From: Holosporales bacterium
GTDB lineage: Bacteria; Pseudomonadota; Alphaproteobacteria; Paracaedibacterales; CANFPP01
Assembly: GCA_947449005.1 (NCBI GenBank)
Contig: CANFPP010000009.1
Location: 796-64,795, forward strand
Direction of reading: 5' to 3'
Length of the DNA stretch: 64,000 nt
Numbering within the stretch: position 1 is the stretch's first letter; every line of letters starts with the position of its first letter. Below the pieces are notes generated by a model, which was given only the letters and a program-made list of their open reading frames with translations, did not search any database and had not been told where the DNA came from. The translations under genes and the position numbers were made by a program. Positions 3,097 to 14,363 of the stretch are shown here, piece by piece.

Positions 3097-4965
3097 TTGG
3101 CTTCTTTACTCTTAATTTTTTTCATAGCTATTCCTACAATCGCTGTCGCTTCAACACAGACGTTGCCTGCTGTTGTTGTGTCTGCTTCGCGTCATATCGA
3201 GCCATCTCCTTCAATAACAACGATTACTGAAGATGATATCGAAAATAATCAGTATGAAGACTTGCCCAAAGCTTTAGATGAAGCTTCTGGATTAAGTGTT
3301 GTGCAGAATGGTGGTGTTGGCAATCAGAGTTCTGTTTTTATAAGGGGCAGTAATTCTAATCACGTTCTGGTGTTGATTGACGGAATAAAGGCGAACAATC
3401 CTAGTTCTCCCAATGGAGCATTTGATTTTGGCCAATTGCGAACAGACGGAATTGAGAAAATTGAAATTTTGCGCGGTCCCCAAAGTTCACAATATGGTTC
3501 GGATGCTCTTGGCGGTGTTATAAATATTGTAACGCGCAAAGGGCAGGGGAAAACAAAAGTTTCTGGAACGCTAGAGGCAGGTTCTTTTCAAACGAATGGG
3601 CAATCTCTCAATGCTCAAGGAGAGCAGGGGCGTGCCAATTACAATGTCACAGTTTCAAGGCTGCAAACTGGTGGAACAGTTGTAACGCCTGCATTCTACC
3701 GAACAAAGCCACGGCAATTTGGCGCGGATCCTTACCAAAATGAATCAATGACATCCAGAGTTGGTGCGGATGTTAACGATCGTCTTCGAATTTCTTTATT
3801 TAACCATTATCTAAATACCAATCGTAAATATATATACATGATTGATAAAGTTAACCCTTCGTATCAACAGCATAAAAAGCAATTTTATAATCGGTTACAA
3901 GCTGATCTAAATTCTCCTGATGATTTATGGCAGCCAAGCTTTGGAGCGTCCTATACCGATATTTGGACACGTAGTGGTAATGATATTCCTTCTTATGGAA
4001 CGCCTTCTTGGAATGTGGGGAATATTGGAGGTATTGATTGGAAAAATCGTATTAATGTTAACCAAAACTATCAAATTGATGCGGGAGTGGAAAAAGAAAA
4101 ACAATCTATGCAGCAATATAATGGCAGGACTAATAACTTTATAATTGCGAAGACAAGTAGCGCTGGTGGTTTTATGGGACACCACCTCACTTTTTTTCAA
4201 AGAGTTGCTGTGGATGTGGGAGCACGATTAGATCACCATGATAATTTTAAAGATGCAGCAACCTATAGACTTTCAGTAAGCTATGATCATCTAGAAACAA
4301 AGACAAAGGTGTTTACGGCTTACGGGACGGGCTATAAAGCGCCCAGCCTCTCGCAGTTATTTGGAATTGATTCAGGTAATCCAAATCTTAAACCTGAGAA
4401 GAATAAAGCGGGTGAAGTGGGCGTTGTTCAATCTTTCCATAAAATGGAAATTGGGAGCACATATTTTTACGACAGTATTAGCAATTTAATTGAAAATATC
4501 CGAAGCCCTAGTGACCCGCAGCAATTTCTTTATACTAACATTAATCAGGCCAAAATTTGGGGTTTCGAATCGTTCGCATCCTTTAGAATTAATGCAGATA
4601 TTATGCTGAGAGTTAGTCACACGTTTACGCATGCTAAAGATCCTGTAAGCAATAAACAGCTGATGCGACGTCCCCAACATAAAATCACGGGGCAATTGGA
4701 TTATCAAATAACACCCGATTGGAAAATGGGGATGGGGGTTATTTATAATGGTAAACGAGCAGATTCTCAGTATGAATTTCCTTATAGCAGAGTATATCCT
4801 GGCGGGTATACAGTTGTTAGAGCTGTTACGAGTTACAATGTGAACAAAAGAGTTCAGTTATTTGGTAGGGTTGAAAACGCTTTGAATCGACGTTATGAAA
4901 ATCCAAAAGACTTCGAGCAGCCTGGTGTTGGTTTCTACGCTGGGATTAAAACGGTATTTTCATAA
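3097..4965 (+). CDS. TonB-dependent outer-membrane receptor
   Basis: Signal peptide, then plug motifs 'LPAVVVSASR' and 'IEILRGPQSSQYGSDALGGVINIVT', then a long beta-barrel region. TTG start as in the track (no in-frame ATG upstream). The stop overlaps the tonB-like ATG by 1 nt. Confidence 0.85.
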   Translation: MASLLLIFFIAIPTIAVASTQTLPAVVVSASRHIEPSPSITTITEDDIENNQYEDLPKALDEASGLSVVQNGGVGNQSSVFIRGSNSNHVLVLIDGIKANNPSSPNGAFDFGQLRTDGIEKIEILRGPQSSQYGSDALGGVINIVTRKGQGKTKVSGTLEAGSFQTNGQSLNAQGEQGRANYNVTVSRLQTGGTVVTPAFYRTKPRQFGADPYQNESMTSRVGADVNDRLRISLFNHYLNTNRKYIYMIDKVNPSYQQHKKQFYNRLQADLNSPDDLWQPSFGASYTDIWTRSGNDIPSYGTPSWNVGNIGGIDWKNRINVNQNYQIDAGVEKEKQSMQQYNGRTNNFIIAKTSSAGGFMGHHLTFFQRVAVDVGARLDHHDNFKDAATYRLSVSYDHLETKTKVFTAYGTGYKAPSLSQLFGIDSGNPNLKPEKNKAGEVGVVQSFHKMEIGSTYFYDSISNLIENIRSPSDPQQFLYTNINQAKIWGFESFASFRINADIMLRVSHTFTHAKDPVSNKQLMRRPQHKITGQLDYQITPDWKMGMGVIYNGKRADSQYEFPYSRVYPGGYTVVRAVTSYNVNKRVQLFGRVENALNRRYENPKDFEQPGVGFYAGIKTVFS

Positions 4966-5699: not shown

Positions 5700-6503
5700 A
5701 TGAATCTACCAAACAATATAAATTATCTTGCAAGCCAGCTGTCAAAGGCACTGGATGCAGATGCTTTAGATATTTTCTTTCAGCCCAAAATTTCCCTTAC
5801 AACTGGTGTTGTTATCGGTGCTGAGGTATTGCTTCGGGTTCCGAACGATGAGCTTGAACATATTTCTACAGATATGTGGATCAAGGCTGCAACAGATCAA
5901 GGATTAATGGGAGATTTAACGAACTGGTTGGTTAAGAAAGTCATTAATCAAATCAAAAAATGGCCAAATCCTAAGGTCCCTTTATCTATTAATGTTCCGC
6001 CAACAATATTTGATCATGAGTTTTCCGACTTTGTACTTAAGTCTTTAAAGCAAGCAGGTGTTTCTAATTCATTGCTTGAAATCGAAATTATAGAGGCTAA
6101 TCGCCCACCAAATCTAAAGATCTTATCAGAGTCTGTTCAGTACCTTCGTAGCAAGGGCGTTAAAGTTTCAATTGATGATTTTGGATCTGGATATGCAACG
6201 ATGCAGTATTTGGTTGGAATTCCCGTTGATACAGTCAAAATTGATAAAAGCTTTATACAGCAAGCGCCACATTCTTCTGCAGCCTATATGGTTCTTCGAT
6301 CTCTCATTGAACTTGCGAAAGAAATGGAGATCTATGTGATTTGTGAGGGGGCTGAAACTCTTGAGCAGCTGAAAATATTGCTCAAGATGAAATGTGACGC
6401 CATTCAAGGTTTTATTGTGAGTAAACCCATGGCGAGTGAAGATGCTATTGCTTGGTTTGCTGCTAACCCAATTATCGATTTTAAAAAAATGGTTGAAATT
6501 TAG
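5700..6503 (+). CDS. Stand-alone EAL-domain protein (putative c-di-GMP phosphodiesterase)
   Basis: Motifs 'FFQPKISL..GAEVLLR', 'EIEIIE', 'DDFGSGYATMQYL', 'KIDKSFI', 'ICEGAETLEQ', 'QGF'. Confidence 0.85.
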   Translation: MNLPNNINYLASQLSKALDADALDIFFQPKISLTTGVVIGAEVLLRVPNDELEHISTDMWIKAATDQGLMGDLTNWLVKKVINQIKKWPNPKVPLSINVPPTIFDHEFSDFVLKSLKQAGVSNSLLEIEIIEANRPPNLKILSESVQYLRSKGVKVSIDDFGSGYATMQYLVGIPVDTVKIDKSFIQQAPHSSAAYMVLRSLIELAKEMEIYVICEGAETLEQLKILLKMKCDAIQGFIVSKPMASEDAIAWFAANPIIDFKKMVEI

Positions 6504-6552
6504 GGACTTTTGTTCTTAAGATCCCAAAATTATCTCCTTCATAAATATTGTC

Positions 6553-9162
6553 ATGAATAAAAATCTTGATGCGACCGTGAGCCCTATGATGGTTCAATAT
6601 TGGCAGATTAAAAATCAGCATAATGATTGTTTGCTATTCTTCCGTATGGGCGATTTTTATGAACTGTTTTTTGATGACGCTGTTATTGCCGCAAAAGATT
6701 TAGAAATCACCCTTACGCGGCGCGGGCAACACAAAGGGGAAGAGATTCCGATGTGTGGTGTGCCTGTACATTCTCATGAAATTTATTTATCTAGACTTAT
6801 CCAAAAAGGTCACAAAGTTGCAGTTTGTGAACAATTAGAGAGTCCGGAAGCTGCTAAAAAACGAGGAAGTAAGGCGCCGCTAGAGCGGGGCGTTATTCGA
6901 ATTATAACCCCGGGAACGATTACAGAAGAGGGACTTTTGCCTTCGAATAGGTATAATTTCCTAGTCGCCCTTTCTCCTATTTCGAAGAGTAACATGATTG
7001 GCATCGCGACGATTGATATCTCGACGGGCGCATTTTTTGTTGAAGAAAATAATCTGGAGCGGCTGGCGTCAACATTAACACGGCTCAATCCGGCAGAGAT
7101 TATTTTGCCTGACGCGCTGTTGCAAGATCCTATTATCTATCAAAGTTTGGATGCTTGGAAAAAACAATTTAGCCCATTGCCACTGGCGAGGTTTGATTTT
7201 CAGAATGGTAAGGCACGCCTTGAAAAACTCTTTCATGTAAAAACACTGGAAGCATTTGGGTTTTTTTCAGAAATAGAGACTAGGGCAGCTGGTGTTTTGG
7301 TTGACTATATCGAAATAACACAAAAGCAAGTTTGCTCATTTTTGGATTATCCGCGCCAAATTAATGCGAACTCGTTAATGGTGATTGACCCAACAACAAA
7401 GCGAAGTTTAGAGATTGATTCGACGCTGAATAGTGGAAATCATCAAGATAATCTTTTTAATACGATAAATCTCACGGTAACGGCGAGCGGGGCGCGTTTG
7501 TTGGCGTATCGATTGTCGGCGCCGCTGATTAATCCAGCACAGATTAACAAGCGACTTGATCAGGTTTCTTTTTTTATTGAGCATCCAGATGTTCTGACGA
7601 CTATACGTGGTTTTTTGAAGGTATGCCCTGACTTAGAGCGATCGTTGTCGCGTTTATGTCTTGGTCGCGGAACGCCGCGAGATCTGGCTGCTATTGGTTC
7701 AGGATTGAATCAGACACATAAGATTAAGGCTTGCTTAGAAGGGTATTCAAGCCCAATTGTTTCTACGTTTGTTGATGGTTTTCATGATTACACAGTTCTC
7801 GTTGAAACTTTATCTGCAGCTTTGGCTGAGAGTTTGCCTGCGAATACGAAAGAGGGCGGGTATATTGCAGCGAACTATAACCAAGAATTAGATGAGCAAC
7901 GGGAACTGAGAGATAATGGCCGTGCGATCATTCTCGATCTGCAGCAGAAATACAGTGCAGAAACCGGAATCAACACTTTAAAAATCCGCCATAATAACGT
8001 GTTGGGTTATCATATCGATATTAACCCGAATCATGCTTCTAAAATGGGTGAAGGGTTTATTCATCGCCAAAGTTTAGCCTCCAGCATGCGCTATACGACA
8101 ACGGAATTGGCTGAGCTGGAAAAGAAAATCGATGGAGCAACCTTTAGGGCGCTCAACATCGAAATGGAGCTTTTCTTAAGTTTAGTGGAGAAAGTGCAAC
8201 AGCAACGTGTGGAAATTCAGCAAACAAGTCGAGGGCTTGCTAAACTGGACGTTGCTGCGGCCTTAGCGCAACTAGCACGCACATATAATTATTCTAGGCC
8301 AATTGTTGATAACAGTCTTATCTTTTCCATCAATAAGGGGCGGCATCCGGTTGTAGATATTTTGCTTAAAACCCGGAATGATGTGTCTTTCGTGCCGAAC
8401 AATTGCTTGATGGATGATGAGACAAAGCTGTTGCTGTTAACGGGGCCGAATATGGCGGGTAAAAGTACGTACCTGCGTCAGAATGCATTGATAGCAATTT
8501 TAGCGCAGATGGGGTCGTACGTTCCGGCGGAGTCGGCTCATATTGGAATTGTGGATCGAATCTTTAGCCGTGTTGGGGCGGCGGATGACTTAGCATCGGG
8601 CCGGTCAACCTTTATGGTTGAGATGGTGGAAACGGCGGCAATCCTTCATCAGGCGACGGAAAGATCCTTTGTTATTTTAGATGAGATTGGACGTGGGACC
8701 GCGACGTATGATGGCCTGTCAATTGCGTGGGCGGTTATCGAAGCGCTTTGCCACAAGAACAAAAGCCGAACTTTGTTTGCAACGCATTATCATGAACTAA
8801 CACACTTAGCGCAGAGTTTATCGATGCTGTCATGTCTGACAATGAAGATCAAAGAGTGGAATAATGATGTTATTTTCTTGCATCAAGTAGCGCCAGGGCA
8901 GGCGGATAAATCGTATGGGATTCATGTGGCAGCGTTAGCGGGCTTGCCAAAATCTGTAATAGAGCGAGCAAGTCATATCTTAGTGGGGCTGGAGAGTAAG
9001 AAAAAGGTTGAAATTCCAAAACAACAATTACCACTTCCGATTAACTCTCGGCCTGTTGCTCCTCCTTCAAAGGTCGAAGAGCTGCTAAAATCTATCGATG
9101 TTGATCAGCTAACGCCACGTCAGGCGCTGGATCAAATGTATTACCTGAAGGGGTTGATTTAG
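6553..9162 (+). CDS. mutS: DNA mismatch repair protein MutS
   Basis: 'FFRMGDFYELFFDDA', Walker A 'TGPNMAGKSTYLRQ', 'ILDEIGRGTATYDG', 'FATHYHELT'. 869 aa. Confidence 0.96.
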   Translation: MNKNLDATVSPMMVQYWQIKNQHNDCLLFFRMGDFYELFFDDAVIAAKDLEITLTRRGQHKGEEIPMCGVPVHSHEIYLSRLIQKGHKVAVCEQLESPEAAKKRGSKAPLERGVIRIITPGTITEEGLLPSNRYNFLVALSPISKSNMIGIATIDISTGAFFVEENNLERLASTLTRLNPAEIILPDALLQDPIIYQSLDAWKKQFSPLPLARFDFQNGKARLEKLFHVKTLEAFGFFSEIETRAAGVLVDYIEITQKQVCSFLDYPRQINANSLMVIDPTTKRSLEIDSTLNSGNHQDNLFNTINLTVTASGARLLAYRLSAPLINPAQINKRLDQVSFFIEHPDVLTTIRGFLKVCPDLERSLSRLCLGRGTPRDLAAIGSGLNQTHKIKACLEGYSSPIVSTFVDGFHDYTVLVETLSAALAESLPANTKEGGYIAANYNQELDEQRELRDNGRAIILDLQQKYSAETGINTLKIRHNNVLGYHIDINPNHASKMGEGFIHRQSLASSMRYTTTELAELEKKIDGATFRALNIEMELFLSLVEKVQQQRVEIQQTSRGLAKLDVAAALAQLARTYNYSRPIVDNSLIFSINKGRHPVVDILLKTRNDVSFVPNNCLMDDETKLLLLTGPNMAGKSTYLRQNALIAILAQMGSYVPAESAHIGIVDRIFSRVGAADDLASGRSTFMVEMVETAAILHQATERSFVILDEIGRGTATYDGLSIAWAVIEALCHKNKSRTLFATHYHELTHLAQSLSMLSCLTMKIKEWNNDVIFLHQVAPGQADKSYGIHVAALAGLPKSVIERASHILVGLESKKKVEIPKQQLPLPINSRPVAPPSKVEELLKSIDVDQLTPRQALDQMYYLKGLI

Positions 9163-9350
9163 GGGAGAGGCTATGTTTCTTAGCTTTTTCTTTCTTGCAA
9201 GCCGTTTAAATTGCCTTCTTTTACCATAAAACCCTGAAGTGTCTATATTGTCTGTTGTGCGGAGTGTTTAGTGTAATAGACTATTTGATTAGTAATTATT
9301 TTTTATGCCGAGTATACTTCGTTTTTTTTTATTAAGCAGAGTGAACACTG

Positions 9351-10280
9351 GTGGACTGTAAATTGTTAAAGATAATTTTCTTATTTTTACTCATTGATAC
9401 GACATGCGTTCATTCAATGGAAAGTGAAGTAATCCACCACCATAAAGTTCTTGATGATGGTTCTGTAGTCGAACATACTTATTGTTTCAATCAAATAAAA
9501 TATAATGAACTTTCCGCTCAATACTTATCCCTTGATTGCATACCTGAATTAAAATCTTATGCTTATTTAGGAGAAATAAATTTTGAGAAATTTCATTATT
9601 TACAAATGCAAATGGTAGCGCACATTGGAGGCAAAAGCCCATACTCACAAGCAGCAACCGATGGTATTTATGATTGTGTTGGAATTGTATTAATTAGAGG
9701 GAGAGATAATGCTGCGTTGGTGACACATGCATTGGCTTCAGAAGACTTTGGATGTTTTGAGGATTATCTATCTGATTTTACAAATGAAAGAACAGATGAT
9801 ACACGTGTACACCTCGTAACTTGCTATAATTCTCCATTTTTATTAAGTGTCATTGATATCTTAAGAAGTTTCAATCTTGAGATCAGCACCTTAAATAGAA
9901 GAAAATTGCCCAACGGTCAGCATGTTATATCTGAAAAATATTTTGAAGAAACATTCCCTCACTGTAAATATTTTATGCCAGAAAATTGTAGAAATTTAGT
10001 AAGACCAGACTATACTCATGGACTTGAAGATCCGTTTCTGCATACTTACACGGATAACCCAGTAGAATTGTTTGTAGATATAGATTTAGGGTACGTTGGT
10101 TTTAATATCCCATCTGTTGATGTTAAAAAATTTAATGTTAGGTATTGGGAGGATATGGATAGTTTATTACCAGAAGAACGAAATATGATAATTCAAACAT
10201 ATCCGCATCTGCAAAGAGCACAAAAAGAATTTTTCTTAAGAGTTAAACAAAAAGATGCATCTTTTTATCTAGTTTCTTGA
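9351..10280 (+). CDS. Orphan exported protein with a CheD-like Thr/Cys/His motif
   Basis: GTG start and hydrophobic N-terminus 'LLKIIFLFLLIDTTCVHS'. 'ATDGIYDCVGIVLIRGRDNAALVTHA' (T103, C109, H126) matches the spacing of the CheD deamidase active site. The rest has no recognisable similarity. Confidence 0.4.
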   Translation: MDCKLLKIIFLFLLIDTTCVHSMESEVIHHHKVLDDGSVVEHTYCFNQIKYNELSAQYLSLDCIPELKSYAYLGEINFEKFHYLQMQMVAHIGGKSPYSQAATDGIYDCVGIVLIRGRDNAALVTHALASEDFGCFEDYLSDFTNERTDDTRVHLVTCYNSPFLLSVIDILRSFNLEISTLNRRKLPNGQHVISEKYFEETFPHCKYFMPENCRNLVRPDYTHGLEDPFLHTYTDNPVELFVDIDLGYVGFNIPSVDVKKFNVRYWEDMDSLLPEERNMIIQTYPHLQRAQKEFFLRVKQKDASFYLVS

Positions 10281-10407
10281 TCAAACATCGAAATTTTCCA
10301 TGCCTATGGTGGCACTAAAAAACTATAAATTATACTGTGACTAAAATATTGTAAAAAAATAAACAAATCTTATATATTGCGAATGAAACTATATAGGGTT
10401 AAATAAC

Positions 10408-10710
10408 GTGAATTTAAAATACTTAATCTCATCTGCACTCATATCAACCTCACTTTTTGCCGCTGAAAATTCTGTTAATGATGCAGCAACACTATCTTTA
10501 GATGAAGCAGCAACTCGGATTCAAAGAAGGTTTAGGCTTCCTCTAGATAAAAAGCTCCATGGCATAAAAGATGAGCTTTCGCCTGAAGCAGCACTCGTTC
10601 ATTGGACATTGGGGGCTCCTTATCAAGGAGAGGAATTTGCTGCAACAGAACATGCAGAGGAATGGTTTTTTTTACGCGATAAGCTGCTTGGGCCCCCCCT
10701 CAAAAGTTGA
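10408..10710 (+). CDS. Small exported orphan protein with an IQ-like motif
   Basis: Signal-peptide-like 'MNLKYLISSALISTSLFAAEN'. 'AATRIQRRFRLPLDKK' is IQ-like. A C7 tract lies at 10693-10699 near the stop. Confidence 0.4.
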   Translation: MNLKYLISSALISTSLFAAENSVNDAATLSLDEAATRIQRRFRLPLDKKLHGIKDELSPEAALVHWTLGAPYQGEEFAATEHAEEWFFLRDKLLGPPLKS

Positions 10711-10720
10711 GTAGTAAGAA

Positions 10721-10793
10721 TCTATGGATGTTGATCAGCTAACGCCACGTCAGGCGCTGGATCAAATGTATTATTTGAAGGGGCTGATTTAGG
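10721..10793 (+). pseudogene. Duplicated 3-prime end of mutS (last 23 codons plus stop)
   Basis: Aligned by eye to 9091-9163: 73 nt with 4 mismatches (positions equivalent to 9096, 9144, 9145, 9154). Three of the four are synonymous in the mutS frame. Confidence 0.9.
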
Positions 10794-11022
10794 AGTAAAA
10801 AATTACAATTAATTTTCTCCTTCATTTTCACATCAAAAATAGCATTGCTATTTTACCGTCCATCCTTAGAAAAACTAGGTCGAGTTCAATGGGCTACCAA
10901 AAAGATGCGCTTGGGCTTCAATTTTGGTGGTAAAGTTGCGCCAATTCTTTAGCGTTGACAGATGAAAATCCTTTATGTTTAGATTGATTTTATTAAAATG
11001 ATAATTAATTCAGAGTAAATGT

Positions 11023-11901
11023 ATGGAATCAAAGGATTTGGCACTAATAGAATCTTTAATAAATGAATTAAAGGTTAATAATCAGATATTGCATTCTAAT
11101 TACTTGCATTTCCTCAATTTAAAAGATTTAATTCTGCAAAAAATAAGTTATGATTTCCAAAAAACTGATCAAAACCCATTCAATAAATTTGGCAAAAAAT
11201 GTTTTTCCCAAACAGATGAAGATGGCCTTACTATTGAAATAATTAGACGGCTCGGCATTCAAAAGGGGATATACGCTGAATTTGGAGTAGGCGATGGTTT
11301 AGAAAATAATACGTTAATTTTGGCTGCTCTTGGCTGGAGTGGATTTTGGGTTGGTGGTGAAGACCTTGCTTTTGACTATTCTAAGGCGAAAAAATTTAAA
11401 TATATTAAAGATTGGATAACATTAGAAAATATATCCGGGCATGCAACAACAGGGCTCAATAGTCTAAATGCAACGTCAGTTGATGTTATTTCGCTAGACC
11501 TTGATGGCAACGATTTTTATTTTGCTCAAAAATTATTACAAGATAAAATGTTGCCAAAGCTTTTTATTGTTGAATATAGCGCAAAATTTCCACCGCCTGT
11601 AAAATTTAAGATTGACTATTCAGAAAATCACCAGTGGATTGGTGATGATTATTTTGGTGCATCTTTAAGTAGCTTTAATGAACTGTTTAACCAGTTCGAT
11701 TACCAACTAATTTGCTGCAACTCAGGCACTGGCGGTAATGCTTTTTTTGTAAAAAAAGAATTTATTCATCTTTTTACTGATGTGCCTACTGATATTAATA
11801 AACTTTATATTGGTCCGCGGTATTTTTTGTATAATTTACATGGACATAGAAACTCTGCTAAAACTATAGAGCTGATTTTTAATCGAGAAGAAGAGTACTA
11901 A
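11023..11901 (+). CDS. FkbM-like / class I SAM-dependent methyltransferase-like protein
   Basis: 'FSQTDEDGLTIEIIRRLGIQKGIYAEFGVGDGLENNTLILAALGWSGFWVGG' and 'DLDGNDFY' resemble the FkbM-type methyltransferase fold. By-eye call only. Confidence 0.5.
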   Translation: MESKDLALIESLINELKVNNQILHSNYLHFLNLKDLILQKISYDFQKTDQNPFNKFGKKCFSQTDEDGLTIEIIRRLGIQKGIYAEFGVGDGLENNTLILAALGWSGFWVGGEDLAFDYSKAKKFKYIKDWITLENISGHATTGLNSLNATSVDVISLDLDGNDFYFAQKLLQDKMLPKLFIVEYSAKFPPPVKFKIDYSENHQWIGDDYFGASLSSFNELFNQFDYQLICCNSGTGGNAFFVKKEFIHLFTDVPTDINKLYIGPRYFLYNLHGHRNSAKTIELIFNREEEY

Positions 11902-11942
11902 GTGATAGTGAGATTTGTTTTCTCTCTTCATCCACGCTAACC

Positions 11943-12548
11943 TTAAACTATAAAGAGCTCTGTAGTTTTAGGGATTTCTGTACCTGACATTGATTGTCTG
12001 TTTACCCTTAATGTTGTTACTTTTCTCGTTGCCTTTGGCAGCATTAATTCTTTTCTCAAGCCATCTCTTAACATATTTAATAAAACTTCACACTGAATAT
12101 TGCCATCGTGATTAAGATGGTACTGCTCTATTAATGAACAAACTAATTTTATTTCTCTTCGCTCTCCATACAATTGAATAATGGTGAAAGATTTTTCAAG
12201 ACCATCTAGGTATGAGTCGTATTCAGTGCTCTGAGGATCTCTCCTGATGTATAAAGCAATGCCTTCATAAGCAGCACTTAAATACTCTATTCTTTTTACT
12301 CTTCGAATGTTTTCATTGGCAGCTTTGGAGGTGATAAGCCAGCCTAAGATTGCGACACTTATGACACTTATTGTTAAGCCGTTCCCAGTTTTTTCTTGTT
12401 CTGAAAAAGAATGAATCCCGTAAATTGTAACGATAATGCTGCATAAAATAATAAGCCAGTAACGCTTCCAACGATTAAAAAACTTAAAAATATTTTCTGA
12501 TAATTTTCTGACAGTTTCATCTATAGCAATGTTCATTTTGTTTTTCAT
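11943..12548 (-). CDS. Hypothetical membrane protein (two N-terminal TM segments, soluble C-terminal domain)
   Basis: Hydrophobic stretches 'YWLIILCSIIVTIYGI' and 'LTISVISVAILGWLITS'. No recognisable motif. Confidence 0.4.
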   Translation of the reverse strand: MKNKMNIAIDETVRKLSENIFKFFNRWKRYWLIILCSIIVTIYGIHSFSEQEKTGNGLTISVISVAILGWLITSKAANENIRRVKRIEYLSAAYEGIALYIRRDPQSTEYDSYLDGLEKSFTIIQLYGERREIKLVCSLIEQYHLNHDGNIQCEVLLNMLRDGLRKELMLPKATRKVTTLRVNRQSMSGTEIPKTTELFIV

Positions 12549-12785
12549 TTCTCTGTATTTTAATTTTAAGGAAAATAGTTATTTTTTATTATTAATATGT
12601 AAGTAGTATTAACCATAATTGCAATTAAGAAAATCTAATATAAATGATGGTGGTTTGAGCAGAACTAAAGTTTTATTCTTCCTAAAAGTCTTTTGTTTTT
12701 CATTTTGATTTATAAATATAATTTTATTGATTTAATAATTAATTAAACAAATTCATTATATACTATAATCTATAGGAGAATTTTC

Positions 12786-13169
12786 ATGAATAAATTTATT
12801 CTTTCTACTGTCTTTGTTCTTTGCATACCATCTGTCTTTGCCATGGAGAAGGGAGATAAAGAACTTTTCAATGCTCCGACTCTTACTACATTTAAAAAAA
12901 TTTCTTTAGACAGTGGAAATCCTACATCATTACTAGCATTGCTGATTGATAACTCTGATAAAAGTATTAGAAAGGAACAGGAAATGAGTCCTGGTTCTCA
13001 TCCTGAAGTAATCAGCAAGTCTTTTATCTTGAGTCTCTTTAACGATGAAGATTTAATTAACTTTAGCAACGGTAAAAATCCCGACAATCTCAAGCTAAAA
13101 GTTTCATTGTGCAGTAGTAATGATCAAACGATATGTGGGGCTTCTTGCTATTTAGGGTCAAAGAAATAA
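12786..13169 (+). CDS. Small exported orphan protein
   Basis: Signal peptide 'MNKFILSTVFVLCIPSVFAME'. No recognisable family. Confidence 0.4.
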   Translation: MNKFILSTVFVLCIPSVFAMEKGDKELFNAPTLTTFKKISLDSGNPTSLLALLIDNSDKSIRKEQEMSPGSHPEVISKSFILSLFNDEDLINFSNGKNPDNLKLKVSLCSSNDQTICGASCYLGSKK

Positions 13170-13205
13170 AAAAGTAACAATTATAGTTGCTTATATTTCT
13201 TACAC

Positions 13206-14363
13206 TCAAGGCGTATTAAGAAGTTCTAGCGCGGCTTTACCAAAAATATCATAGCGCCAGGACCTGAGGATTGGATTATCTGCACGTTGATCTTTGACGA
13301 AGGATTCGATGTCGTGGCGGCTGGCGATTAAATGTGGCGGCAATCCAGATTCAAGGGATGACTGAGCTAAGAGATCACGAAGATCTTCTACTTGATCACG
13401 AAACTTAAGGGAGAGAGGGGTGCGTAAAAATTGCTTCATCTCCTCTTGCATTTGTGTTTTTCGAAATTCTCTGTCGGGTGAATCTTCTGAAATTAAACTC
13501 CGCGAAACTTGCAGGCATTCAAAAAGATCTGGAAGTAGTTTTAGTTTTTTAATCTCGTGGCGATGTTTTTTAAAAAGATCTTCAAATTCGCTGATATCGG
13601 TTACAAGCGATGCGCTAAGTGTCGTTAGCATTTTATCTTCAACAAGCCAAGCGCGTGGCAGGTTGTGAGCTTGTGCCTTTTCTTCACGCCAAAAGGCGAG
13701 GTCTTTTAGGACAGATAAGACTTTCCAATCTTTAATCGATCCACCGACTCTGTGCCAAGCATGTTCAAGGCGAGCGTTGTAGACATTTTTATCTTCTAGA
13801 GTGCGGCATTCTTCTATAACCCATTCCAACCGATTAAGATCAGATAACTTTTGACACAAGATTGGGTAGAGAGTGCGAAGATGCAGAACATCATCCAGAG
13901 CATATGTTAATTGAGAATCTCTCAAGGGGCGCTGGGCCCAATTGGTGTGTTGCGAAGATTTGTCAATCGTGATGCCCAATAGATTTTGCACCAGACCATC
14001 ATAGCTAAGCCCCACCCCGAGGCCTGCAAAAGTTGCGGCAATTTGCGTGTCGAAAATAGGATAGGGGACTTCTTTGAAAGTATTCCAAAAAATTTCTAAA
14101 TCTTGGCGGCCAGAATGAAAAATTTTTATAATGCTTTGATTTCGAAAGATTTCTTTTAAGGGAGAAAGATCCATATTGTTTGCCAATGGATCGATAATGG
14201 CAGCTTGGTTTGGTGTGGCAATTTGTACAAGACACAGTTGCGGGTAATAGGTTGATTGGCGCGCAAACTCCGTATCAACCGCAATAAAATCCGGGTTTTC
14301 CTTATTAATTGCATCACAAAAATCTAAAAACACAGATGATTCTGTGATTACAGGAACTGCCAT
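13206..14363 (-). CDS. rnd: Ribonuclease D
   Basis: DEDD 3-prime-5-prime exonuclease motifs '[10 protein letters not shown]', '[11 protein letters not shown]', 'YALDDVLHL', followed by an HRDC-like region. 385 aa. Confidence 0.9.

What the first reader, a model, noticed from the sequence alone, without database searches (positions are those of the whole stretch)
9091..10793. 1.63-kb two-gene cassette inserted behind mutS, flanked by a 73-nt duplication of the mutS 3-prime end
Positions 9091-9163 (the last 23 codons and stop of mutS) recur at 10721-10793 with only 4 mismatches. Three of these are synonymous in the mutS frame (tac/tat, ctg/ttg, ttg/ctg) and one is Ile to Met. The second copy therefore looks as if it came from a functional, slightly diverged mutS allele. 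This points to one of two events: a site-specific element using the mutS 3-prime end as its att site, or homologous-recombination capture of foreign DNA together with a neighbouring mutS end. The 1.56 kb between the repeats carries two orphan exported proteins and no integrase.
Basis: seen in the sequence. Interest (0 to 1): 0.6.

Follow-up and report, generated by a model that had tools for sequence, protein, structure and literature searches.

The report
Recombination scar duplicating the mutS end
The second copy of the mutS gene end is real, but it is most likely the end of another lineage's mutS gene, left behind when a fast-changing stretch next to mutS was reshuffled by recombination, and not the footprint of a self-moving two-gene cassette.

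Summary
The repeat is confirmed: 9089-9163 and 10719-10793, 71 of 75 bases identical. These are the only two copies in the 1.9-Mb assembly, and at least five independent assemblies show them. Homology extends to about 101-104 nt. The extra 18 alignable bases differ only at five synonymous third positions, followed by in-frame stops.

Three relatives from public metagenomes settle the context:
- A 97% sister strain has the same layout.
- An 88% sister species also has a duplicated mutS end, around a different 570-nt insert. Its 12 differences are all synonymous (P<1e-5).
- An 89% syntenic species has a single mutS end.

That last species shows that ORF2 is the truncated first ~60-70 codons of a resident 447-aa gene. 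The DNA between the repeats is therefore not a discrete foreign cassette. No recombinase lies nearby. At least five other loci in this genome show gene-end duplications around 1-3 kb inserts.

Best reading (0.55): one-sided, homology-anchored recombination with one illegitimate joint, between alternative versions of a hypervariable region downstream of mutS. Rivals are insertion with long target duplication followed by allele turnover, and site-specific integration.

This scan has noted the same kind of scar before, in this genome and in others.

The parts
6553..9162 (+). mutS (869 aa), intact, all five MutS domains
   Evidence: The precomputed Pfam list also includes MutS_C.
9061..9163 (+). 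Copy 1: the working 3' end of mutS (PPSKVEELLKSIDVDQLTPRQALDQMYYLKGLI, stop). The 75-nt core is 9089-9163.
8222..9330 (+). Patch about 5% diverged between the window strain and its 97% sister strain. It spans the mutS 3' end, copy 1 and about 170 nt of the insert, and is flanked by near-identical sequence. This is the footprint of a later homologous exchange.
9351..10280 (+). ORF1 (309 aa from GTG 9351; 287 aa from ATG 9417). An exported protein of a very small family, with a predicted CheD/NTAN1-type amidohydrolase fold and invariant Thr81, Cys87 and His104 (numbered from 9417).
10270..10284 (+). Tentative decayed vestige of a stray internal mutS fragment. The clear 43-nt version sits at L072:10436-10477 and matches window 8869-8911.
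   Evidence: weak in the window, clear in species E
10326..10590 (+). Ancestral resident DNA: the promoter region and first ~60-70 codons of a 447-aa exported helical-repeat gene. It is 93% identical in nt to L072:10473-10737.
10408..10710 (+). ORF2 (100 aa): a truncated remnant of that 447-aa gene, followed by about 30 unrelated codons. It ends in a C7 tract (10693-10699) at the edge of copy 2.
10591..10693 (+). About 103 nt of unknown origin between the truncation point of the 447-aa gene and copy 2
   Evidence: no match in relatives or elsewhere in the genome
10694..10793 (+). Copy 2: a displaced mutS end, mosaic in structure. The decayed part 10694-10718 reads PPSKVE, TAG, TAA. The pristine 75-nt part is 10719-10793. 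The first stop is GAG in assembly L048.
11023..11901 (+). 292-aa gene that follows copy 2. It is absent from the syntenic species E. Homologues at 63-71% aa lie in unrelated metagenome contigs with no mutS beside them.
11943..14363 (.). Synteny with species E resumes here: the 201-aa gene (-), the 127-aa gene (+) and rnd (-)

Best explanation
The interval between mutS and rnd is a hypervariable slot in a species complex of Paracaedibacteraceae-like bacteria. Copy 2 is the end of a different mutS allele. It became stranded when two alternative versions of this slot were joined by recombination that was homologous on one side only, of the homology-facilitated illegitimate recombination type. One end of the incoming DNA paired in conserved sequence, either mutS itself or the 201-aa/rnd side. 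The other end was joined illegitimately about 100 nt before a mutS stop codon. The result is the order: intact mutS end, ORF1, a resident 447-aa gene cut after ~60-70 codons, a second mutS end, the 292-aa gene.

Shown directly:
- The repeat and its codon-preserving divergence.
- The truncated resident gene.
- The single-end relative.
- An independent duplication with a different insert in a sister species.
- The absence of a recombinase.
- Mosaic strain-to-strain divergence.

Inferred:
- The one-sided recombination itself.
- Which copy is donor and which is recipient.
- That the pristine 75-nt part of copy 2 was later refreshed by homologous exchange or gene conversion, while its upstream 25 nt decayed.
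For: 1. Copy 2 diverged under MutS coding constraint. In the window there are 9 differences and 1 amino-acid change (P about 1e-4). In sister species D there are 12 differences and none, with the stop kept (P<1e-5).
2. Species E (L072, 89% nt, same gene order from the TonB receptor to ruvC) has one mutS end. It carries an intact 447-aa gene whose first ~70 codons correspond to window ORF2. The DNA between the repeats is therefore partly resident and is cut at its right end, as expected at an illegitimate joint.
3. Species D (L071) has its own duplicated end around an unrelated 570-nt insert. There is no homology with the window to the left of copy 2.
4. Species E also holds a stray 43-nt internal mutS fragment carrying a stop. 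This is an older scar of the same kind.
5. There is no recombinase in or near the locus. The genome's three tyrosine and four serine recombinase hits are all on other contigs.
6. Homologous exchange is active here. Strains A and B are identical across 6122-8200, about 5% apart across 8222-9330, and nearly identical again after that. Two of the copy 1/copy 2 differences segregate as alleles in strain B.
7. At least five other genes in the genome have duplicated ends around 1-3 kb inserts. This points to a general process and not a mutS-specific site.
8. recA, comEC and dprA are present.
9. The same model is in print for T6SS effector-immunity arrays and for Rhs orphan arrays (PMC5361080).
Against: - The predicted parental arrangement, mutS directly followed by the 292-aa gene, was not found in any collection.
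- The left edges of copy 2 in the window (about -104 from the stop) and in species D (about -99) nearly coincide. Random illegitimate joints would not be expected to do this.
- 103 nt of unexplained DNA lies between the truncated gene and copy 2.
- The mosaic of copy 2 (decayed upstream part, pristine 75 nt) needs an extra step to explain it.
- comEC, dprA and recA are too widespread to prove DNA uptake.
- No reads could be examined.
Confidence: 0.55

Rival explanations
1. Insertion with long target duplication (Nobusato 2000; Furuta 2010). A DNA segment was inserted at the mutS end, and about 100 nt of the target was duplicated as identical copies. Later the working copy, copy 1, was swapped for other alleles by ordinary homologous recombination. 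Copy 2 stayed behind as a fossil of the old allele.
For: - The structure fits the published criteria: a direct repeat longer than 30 bp, no mobility gene, and an insert shorter than 20 kb (PMC2853133).
- Allele turnover across copy 1 is seen directly in the A/B patch at 8222-9330.
- Several near-perfect gene-end duplications exist in the same genome (C3 145 nt at 98.6%, C5 84 nt at 98.8%).
Against: - The 'insert' contains resident DNA: the promoter and 5' end of the 447-aa gene, at the same place as in species E and truncated.
- No empty-site allele was found with the flanks adjoining.
- In species D, copy 2 has 12 synonymous differences and no decay at all. This needs a very recent swap of copy 1 for an allele 12% away.
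- The mechanism of this insertion class is itself unknown, and it may be the same process as the best explanation.
Confidence: 0.22
2. Site-specific integration. An element with a tyrosine or serine recombinase used the mutS 3' end as attB and carried a mutS-end mimic in attP, as phage 21 and e14 do at icd in E. coli (recalled from memory, not checked here). The element later lost its recombinase and most of its genes.
For: - The two copies share a 46-nt perfectly identical core.
- The differences are synonymous, as in element-borne gene-end mimics.
- The left edge of copy 2 is nearly the same in two species with different inserts.
Against: - There is no recombinase gene or remnant between or beside the repeats in the window, in strain B or in species D.
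- The recombinases of the genome lie on other contigs.
- The right part of the insert is ancestral resident DNA.
- None of 20 order-level relatives has a second mutS end within 10 kb.
- The same scar type occurs at unrelated genes in this genome.
Confidence: 0.1
3. Assembly artefact: a chimeric or duplicated join at a repeated k-mer.
For: The window comes from a metagenome-assembled genome. Short-read contigs from other samples break at the repeat (L042, L046, L074).
Against: Both junctions are spanned in several independent assemblies from different samples, with 0-2 mismatches. The two copies differ at fixed positions. In species D the copies share no exact run long enough to mislead an assembler.
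Confidence: 0.02

Closest known systems
Homology-facilitated illegitimate recombination (de Vries & Wackernagel 2002; Prudhomme et al. 2002; Meier & Wackernagel 2003, as cited in PMC5361080), and the 'sequential displacement' model for Vibrio cholerae T6SS effector-immunity arrays and Rhs/CDI orphan arrays (PMC5361080)
   Same: A conserved upstream gene serves as the anchor and a variable region lies downstream. New DNA is added without an integrase. Displaced 3' pieces and truncated genes are left downstream. The stranded pieces come from other strains and not from duplication.
   Different: Here the anchor is a housekeeping repair gene. The stranded piece is a short non-functional gene end, not an immunity gene kept by selection. 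No experiment or parental genome demonstrates the event.
Insertion with long target duplication of restriction-modification units (Nobusato et al. 2000; Furuta et al. 2010, PMC2853133)
   Same: A direct repeat of tens to hundreds of bases overlaps a gene end and flanks a few kb that carry no mobility gene. The repeats may be imperfect.
   Different: The cargo is not a restriction-modification or toxin-antitoxin unit. Part of the 'insert' is resident DNA. The repeat differences are codon-preserving and mosaic, which a fresh duplication does not predict. No empty site with adjoining flanks was found.
The mutS-rpoS polymorphic region of Escherichia coli and Salmonella (mosaic structure described in PMC4209514)
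   Same: A strain-variable, mosaic, horizontally exchanged stretch lies immediately downstream of mutS.
   Different: It occurs in a different phylogenetic group, and its neighbour is rnd, not rpoS. As far as I recall, duplicated mutS ends are not a described feature there (not checked).
Prophage e14 / phage 21 integration in icd with an alternative icd 3' end
   Same: The gene 3' end is duplicated, the copies differ mostly at synonymous sites, and the working gene stays intact.
   Different: Those elements encode an integrase and are discrete. Here there is none, and the inserts are heterogeneous.

Membership tests
Site-specific integrative element with a gene-end mimic | A recombinase gene (tyrosine or serine) inside or adjoining the element | tested here: not met
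   There are no such ORFs or Pfam hits in 9164-10693 or in the flanks. PF00589 and PF00239 hits occur only on contigs C43, C27, C44, C22, C29 and C36.
Site-specific integrative element with a gene-end mimic | A discrete element whose whole content is absent from the empty site | tested here: not met
   The single-end relative E carries the homologue of 10326-10590 downstream of mutS.
Site-specific integrative element with a gene-end mimic | An identical core shared by both ends | tested here: met
   There is a 46-nt identical run within the 75-nt repeat.
Insertion with long target duplication | A direct repeat longer than 30 bp of target sequence flanking an insert shorter than 20 kb, with no mobility genes | tested here: met
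   criteria from PMC2853133
Insertion with long target duplication | A related genome with one copy of the target and both flanks adjoining (the empty site) | tested here: inconclusive
   Species E has one mutS end but different neighbouring genes (228 aa, 447 aa). No genome with mutS followed directly by the 292-aa gene was found.
Insertion with long target duplication | The two copies derive from one target, so their differences are random decay | tested here: not met
   The differences preserve codons: P about 1e-4 in the window and P<1e-5 in species D.
Homology-facilitated illegitimate recombination scar | The stranded sequence comes from another allele or lineage | tested here: met
   The divergence is synonymous only, and two variant sites segregate in strain B.
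Homology-facilitated illegitimate recombination scar | A non-homologous joint that truncates resident or donor sequence | tested here: met
   The 447-aa gene is cut after ~60-70 codons. Copy 2 begins abruptly about 100 nt before the stop, with no MutS-like sequence upstream.
Homology-facilitated illegitimate recombination scar | Identified donor and recipient parents, with microhomology at the joint | tested here: inconclusive
   The parents were not found. 103 nt of unknown DNA lies at the joint.
Homology-facilitated illegitimate recombination scar | A route for DNA entry and RecA-dependent pairing in this organism | not testable with these tools
   recA, comEC and dprA are present, but these genes are widespread. 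Competence cannot be inferred from them.

The most novel reading that the evidence does not exclude
The displaced mutS ends may be kept because they are translated. In species D, copy 2 is preceded by an in-frame ATG, giving a 37-aa reading frame. In the window, the only amino-acid-changing difference (ATC to ATG) creates a start codon directly after the two stops, giving a 22-aa frame, MDVDQLTPRQALDQMYYLKGLI. A free copy of the MutS C-terminal oligomerisation helix could bind MutS and weaken mismatch repair and its barrier to recombination. That would favour further imports at this locus. A related, less bold reading is a dedicated recombinase-free exchange process with a fixed edge about 100 nt before the mutS stop.
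Probability: 0.06. Interest if true: 0.8.

Novelty: new member of a known kind. Interest (0 to 1): 0.38.

Why it matters
The finding shows how an uncultured protist-associated bacterium with no obvious mobile-element machinery at this site still reshuffles candidate host-interaction genes: by recombination anchored in a conserved housekeeping gene. The stranded, codon-perfect gene ends record which lineages exchanged DNA.

It also bears on a structure this scan keeps meeting, small inserts between long duplications of a gene end. Here the two copies can be shown to be alleles and not fresh duplicates. That supports one-sided homologous recombination as a source of at least some such structures.

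The locus being mutS adds interest, because MutS itself limits recombination between diverged DNA. No effect on mutS function is shown.

Tried and rejected
- A degenerate 47-nt pattern for the tail peptide found nothing in metagenome contigs or genome contigs.
- ORF1 by exact look-up and by word search gave only itself and near-identical variants. A 73%-identical ORF1 fragment (L050) sits beside an ISL3 transposase, and its downstream sequence diverges at once, so it says nothing about the repeat.
- Twenty order-level relatives have no second mutS end and share no synteny downstream of mutS, so they cannot serve as empty sites.
- MutS protein against the insert found no further MutS-like coding upstream of copy 2, in the window or in species D.
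- The window and species D share no homology to the left of copy 2, so a single shared ancestral joint is not supported.
- Rfam found nothing meaningful in 8900-11100. No terminator-like site was found, and promoter-like sites are at chance level.
- The single-sequence AlphaFold model of ORF1 was useless, with pLDDT 37.
- A tandem duplication model was rejected, because ORF1 does not follow copy 2.
- A transposon target-site duplication was rejected, because the repeat is about 100 nt and its differences are allelic.
Full report
**Observation.** The window has a 75-nt direct repeat at 9089-9163 and 10719-10793, with 71/75 bases identical and a spacing of 1630 nt. Copy 1 is the last 23 codons, the stop and two following bases of an intact 869-aa mutS (6553-9162). 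The own assembly (1.9 Mb, 74 contigs, 91% complete) holds exactly these two copies.

A local alignment extends the homology upstream to 9061 and 10694. Copy 1 reads CCT CCT TCA AAG GTC GAA GAG CTG CTA AAA. Copy 2 reads CCC CCC TCA AAA GTT GAG TAG TAA GAA. That is six codons with five third-position synonymous differences, then two in-frame stops and one codon fewer. A protein-level search gives the same picture: VAPPSKVEELLKSIDVDQ... against LGPPSKVE**-ESMDVDQ..., E = 2e-13, with nothing MutS-like further upstream.

**Not an artefact.** An ENA metagenome scaffold (L040) matches 9015 nt across the whole locus with 2 mismatches. A second MAG contig (L045), two further ENA scaffolds (L047, L048) and Logan unitigs (L042, L046) cover the junctions. 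One assembly (L048) has GAG where the window's copy 2 has its first stop, TAG. This is the codon expected from mutS.

**Who the organism is.** The nearest named MutS proteins are alphaproteobacterial: Bartonella at 49% over the whole protein, and Candidatus Paracaedibacter, Odyssella and Finniella at 64-70% over the C-terminal 310 residues. The genome is the only member of its family among the reference genomes held. Twenty genomes of the same order have no second mutS end within 10 kb and no shared gene order downstream of mutS. They cannot serve as empty sites.

**Three close relatives from public assemblies decide the case.**
- *Strain B* (L041 and L044, about 97% nt) has the same left junction and ORF1. 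There, ORF1 carries a 1-nt deletion and runs into sequence that resembles the insertion-sequence ends found at many contig ends of the own genome. Strain B's working mutS end differs from the window's at four synonymous sites. At two of these (TAT TTG) it equals the window's copy 2, so these differences are alleles segregating in the population.
- *Species D* (L071, 88% nt in mutS) also has two mutS ends: L071:2940-3041 and 3611-3708. They lie around a different insert of about 570 nt holding only a 60-aa reading frame on the other strand, and are followed by an unrelated convergent gene. Its copy 2 encodes SKVEELLKSIDVDQLTPRQALDQMYYLKGLV and a stop, exactly as its copy 1 does, despite 12 nucleotide differences including TAG versus TAA.
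- *Species E* (L072 and L073, 89% nt) is syntenic from the TonB-dependent receptor to ruvC and has a single mutS end.

**Codon test.** I placed the observed number of substitutions at random on copy 1. The chance of as few amino-acid changes as observed is below 1e-5 for species D (12 differences, 0 changes). For the window it is about 1e-4 (9 alignable differences, 1 change), at transition/transversion ratios of 1 to 6. Copy 2 therefore spent most of its divergence time as a working mutS end in another lineage, or it is itself under selection.

**What lies between the repeats.** Species E has this order: mutS, a 228-aa gene on the minus strand, a stray 43-nt internal mutS fragment with a CAG-to-TAG change (L072:10436-10477, matching window 8869-8911), a 447-aa gene, and then the 201-aa gene where synteny with the window resumes (window 11943).

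Window 10326-10590 is 93% identical to the promoter region and 5' end of that 447-aa gene. ORF2 matches its first 70 residues at 84% and then diverges. The 447-aa protein has paralogues on contig C1 of the own genome. These are probably the helical-repeat array described in earlier notes of this scan. ORF2 is thus a truncated remnant of a resident gene, and the right part of the supposed cassette is ancestral. What is new relative to species E is 10591-11942: 103 nt of unknown origin, copy 2 and the 292-aa gene. Homologues of the 292-aa protein (63-71% aa) occur in three unrelated metagenome contigs with no mutS beside them.

**Recombination is active here.** The window strain and strain B are virtually identical across 6122-8200. 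They are about 5% apart from 8222 to about 9330, a patch spanning the mutS 3' end, copy 1 and about 170 nt of the insert. After that they differ at only 3 positions up to 10188. The genome encodes RecA, ComEC and DprA, though these genes are too common to prove DNA uptake. Its three tyrosine-recombinase and four serine-recombinase hits all lie on other contigs.

**A general process, not a mutS-specific site.** A self-comparison of the genome finds at least five other places where a gene end is repeated 1-3 kb away around unrelated inserts:
- a sodium:dicarboxylate symporter gene (C3, 145 nt, 98.6%);
- a beta-lactamase-family gene (C5, 84 nt, 98.8%);
- an alpha/beta hydrolase gene (C5, 105 nt, 93%);
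- a thiolase gene (C26, 110 nt, 88%);
- an intergenic 46-nt repeat (C7).

The inserts mostly carry genes with no Pfam family.

**Explanation.** The best fit is recombination between alternative versions of a hypervariable region downstream of mutS, homologous on one side and illegitimate on the other. This is the process described as homology-facilitated illegitimate recombination. It has been proposed for the sequential displacement of T6SS effector-immunity modules in Vibrio cholerae and for strings of orphan 3' ends at Rhs loci (PMC5361080). When the illegitimate joint falls upstream of a mutS stop codon, a second mutS end is stranded.

This accounts for several observations:
- the allelic, codon-preserving divergence;
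- the truncated resident gene;
- the unrelated inserts in two species;
- the older stray mutS fragment in species E;
- the lack of a recombinase.

It does not tell which copy is donor and which is recipient.

The mosaic of copy 2 needs one more inferred step. Its upstream 25 nt are decayed, with stops and an indel, while its 75-nt part is pristine and only about 5% from the population's alleles. The inferred step is a later homologous exchange or gene conversion that used copy 2 as a pairing partner.

**Rivals.** Insertion with long target duplication (PMC2853133) fits the outline, and allele turnover of copy 1 is seen directly. It does not explain the resident, truncated DNA inside the 'insert', and no empty site was found. 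It may in fact be the same process under another name.

Site-specific integration with a gene-end mimic would explain the 46-nt identical core and the near-coincident left edges of copy 2 (about -104 in the window, about -99 in species D). There is no recombinase, however, the 'element' is not discrete, and other genes show the same scar. The coincidence of the two edges remains unexplained.

**Cargo.** Homologues of ORF1 (only 10 among 1.8 billion representative proteins) carry signal peptides and share invariant Thr81, Cys87 and His104. A model built with this alignment (pLDDT 77, pTM 0.80) matches human N-terminal asparagine amidohydrolase NTAN1 (E = 1.6e-8) and the chemotaxis deamidase CheD (E = 3.9e-5, TM 0.56 on the target). 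More weakly it matches YfiH and the CNF1 catalytic domain. ORF1 is therefore a candidate exported Cys-His amidohydrolase or deamidase. It is decaying in strain B.

**Verdict.** The 'mobile two-gene cassette' reading is not supported. This is a new example of a known kind of recombination scar. It is made unusually legible by two sister lineages and one single-end relative.

Noticed in passing
window 9351-10280: ORF1 is predicted to have a CheD/NTAN1-type amidohydrolase fold, with invariant Thr81, Cys87 and His104 (numbered from ATG 9417). Its homologues carry signal peptides. It is a candidate exported deamidase or amidase of a very small family (10 hits in 1.8 billion proteins).
   Followed up: yes
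window 10693-10699: A C7 tract sits exactly at the left edge of copy 2. With six C's, the ORF2 frame would run into the PPSKVE codons of copy 2 and end at its TAG/TAA stops.
   Followed up: partly
window 10724-10792; L071:3598-3708: Both displaced mutS ends begin with an in-frame ATG, giving frames of 22 aa in the window and 37 aa in species D. In the window the ATG is created by the only amino-acid-changing difference. The ribosome-binding sites look weak. No expression data were available.
   Followed up: partly
L041:8026-8075 and many contig ends of G000: In the sister strain, ORF1 runs into sequence about 83% similar to a motif found roughly 120-143 nt from the ends of many contigs of the own genome. 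This is probably the end of a multi-copy insertion sequence that breaks the assembly.
   Followed up: partly
L074 (ERZ19026178), equivalent to window 6801-6977: One assembly carries a mutS with a 177-nt internal gap relative to the window. The gene caller splits it into 209-aa and 594-aa products. It may be a mutS-defective subpopulation or a misassembly.
   Followed up: no
G000 C3:30957-33519; C5:39154-41608; C5:60754-63354; C26:23050-25594; C7:3588-6818; C19:16801-19336: Other 46-145 nt duplications of gene ends (symporter, beta-lactamase-family, hydrolase and thiolase genes) flank 1-3 kb inserts of mostly family-less genes. The near-perfect ones differ at third codon positions. The 88-93% ones differ at all codon positions.
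   Followed up: partly
L072:10436-10477 (possible vestige at window 10270-10284): A stray 43-nt internal mutS fragment with a CAG-to-TAG change lies between the 228-aa gene and the 447-aa gene of species E. It is an older mutS-derived scar in the same region.
   Followed up: partly
window about 2100-2900 versus L072:2730-3243: The toxin-antitoxin slot upstream of the TonB-dependent receptor holds a TacA-type pair in the window lineage and a RelB/ParE-YafQ pair in species E. The adjoining region is 8% diverged between strains A and B. This is a second variable slot in the window.
   Followed up: no
L050 (ERZ27280268): A remnant of the ORF1 C-terminus, 73% identical in aa, lies beside an ISL3-family transposase in an unrelated metagenome.
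   Followed up: partly
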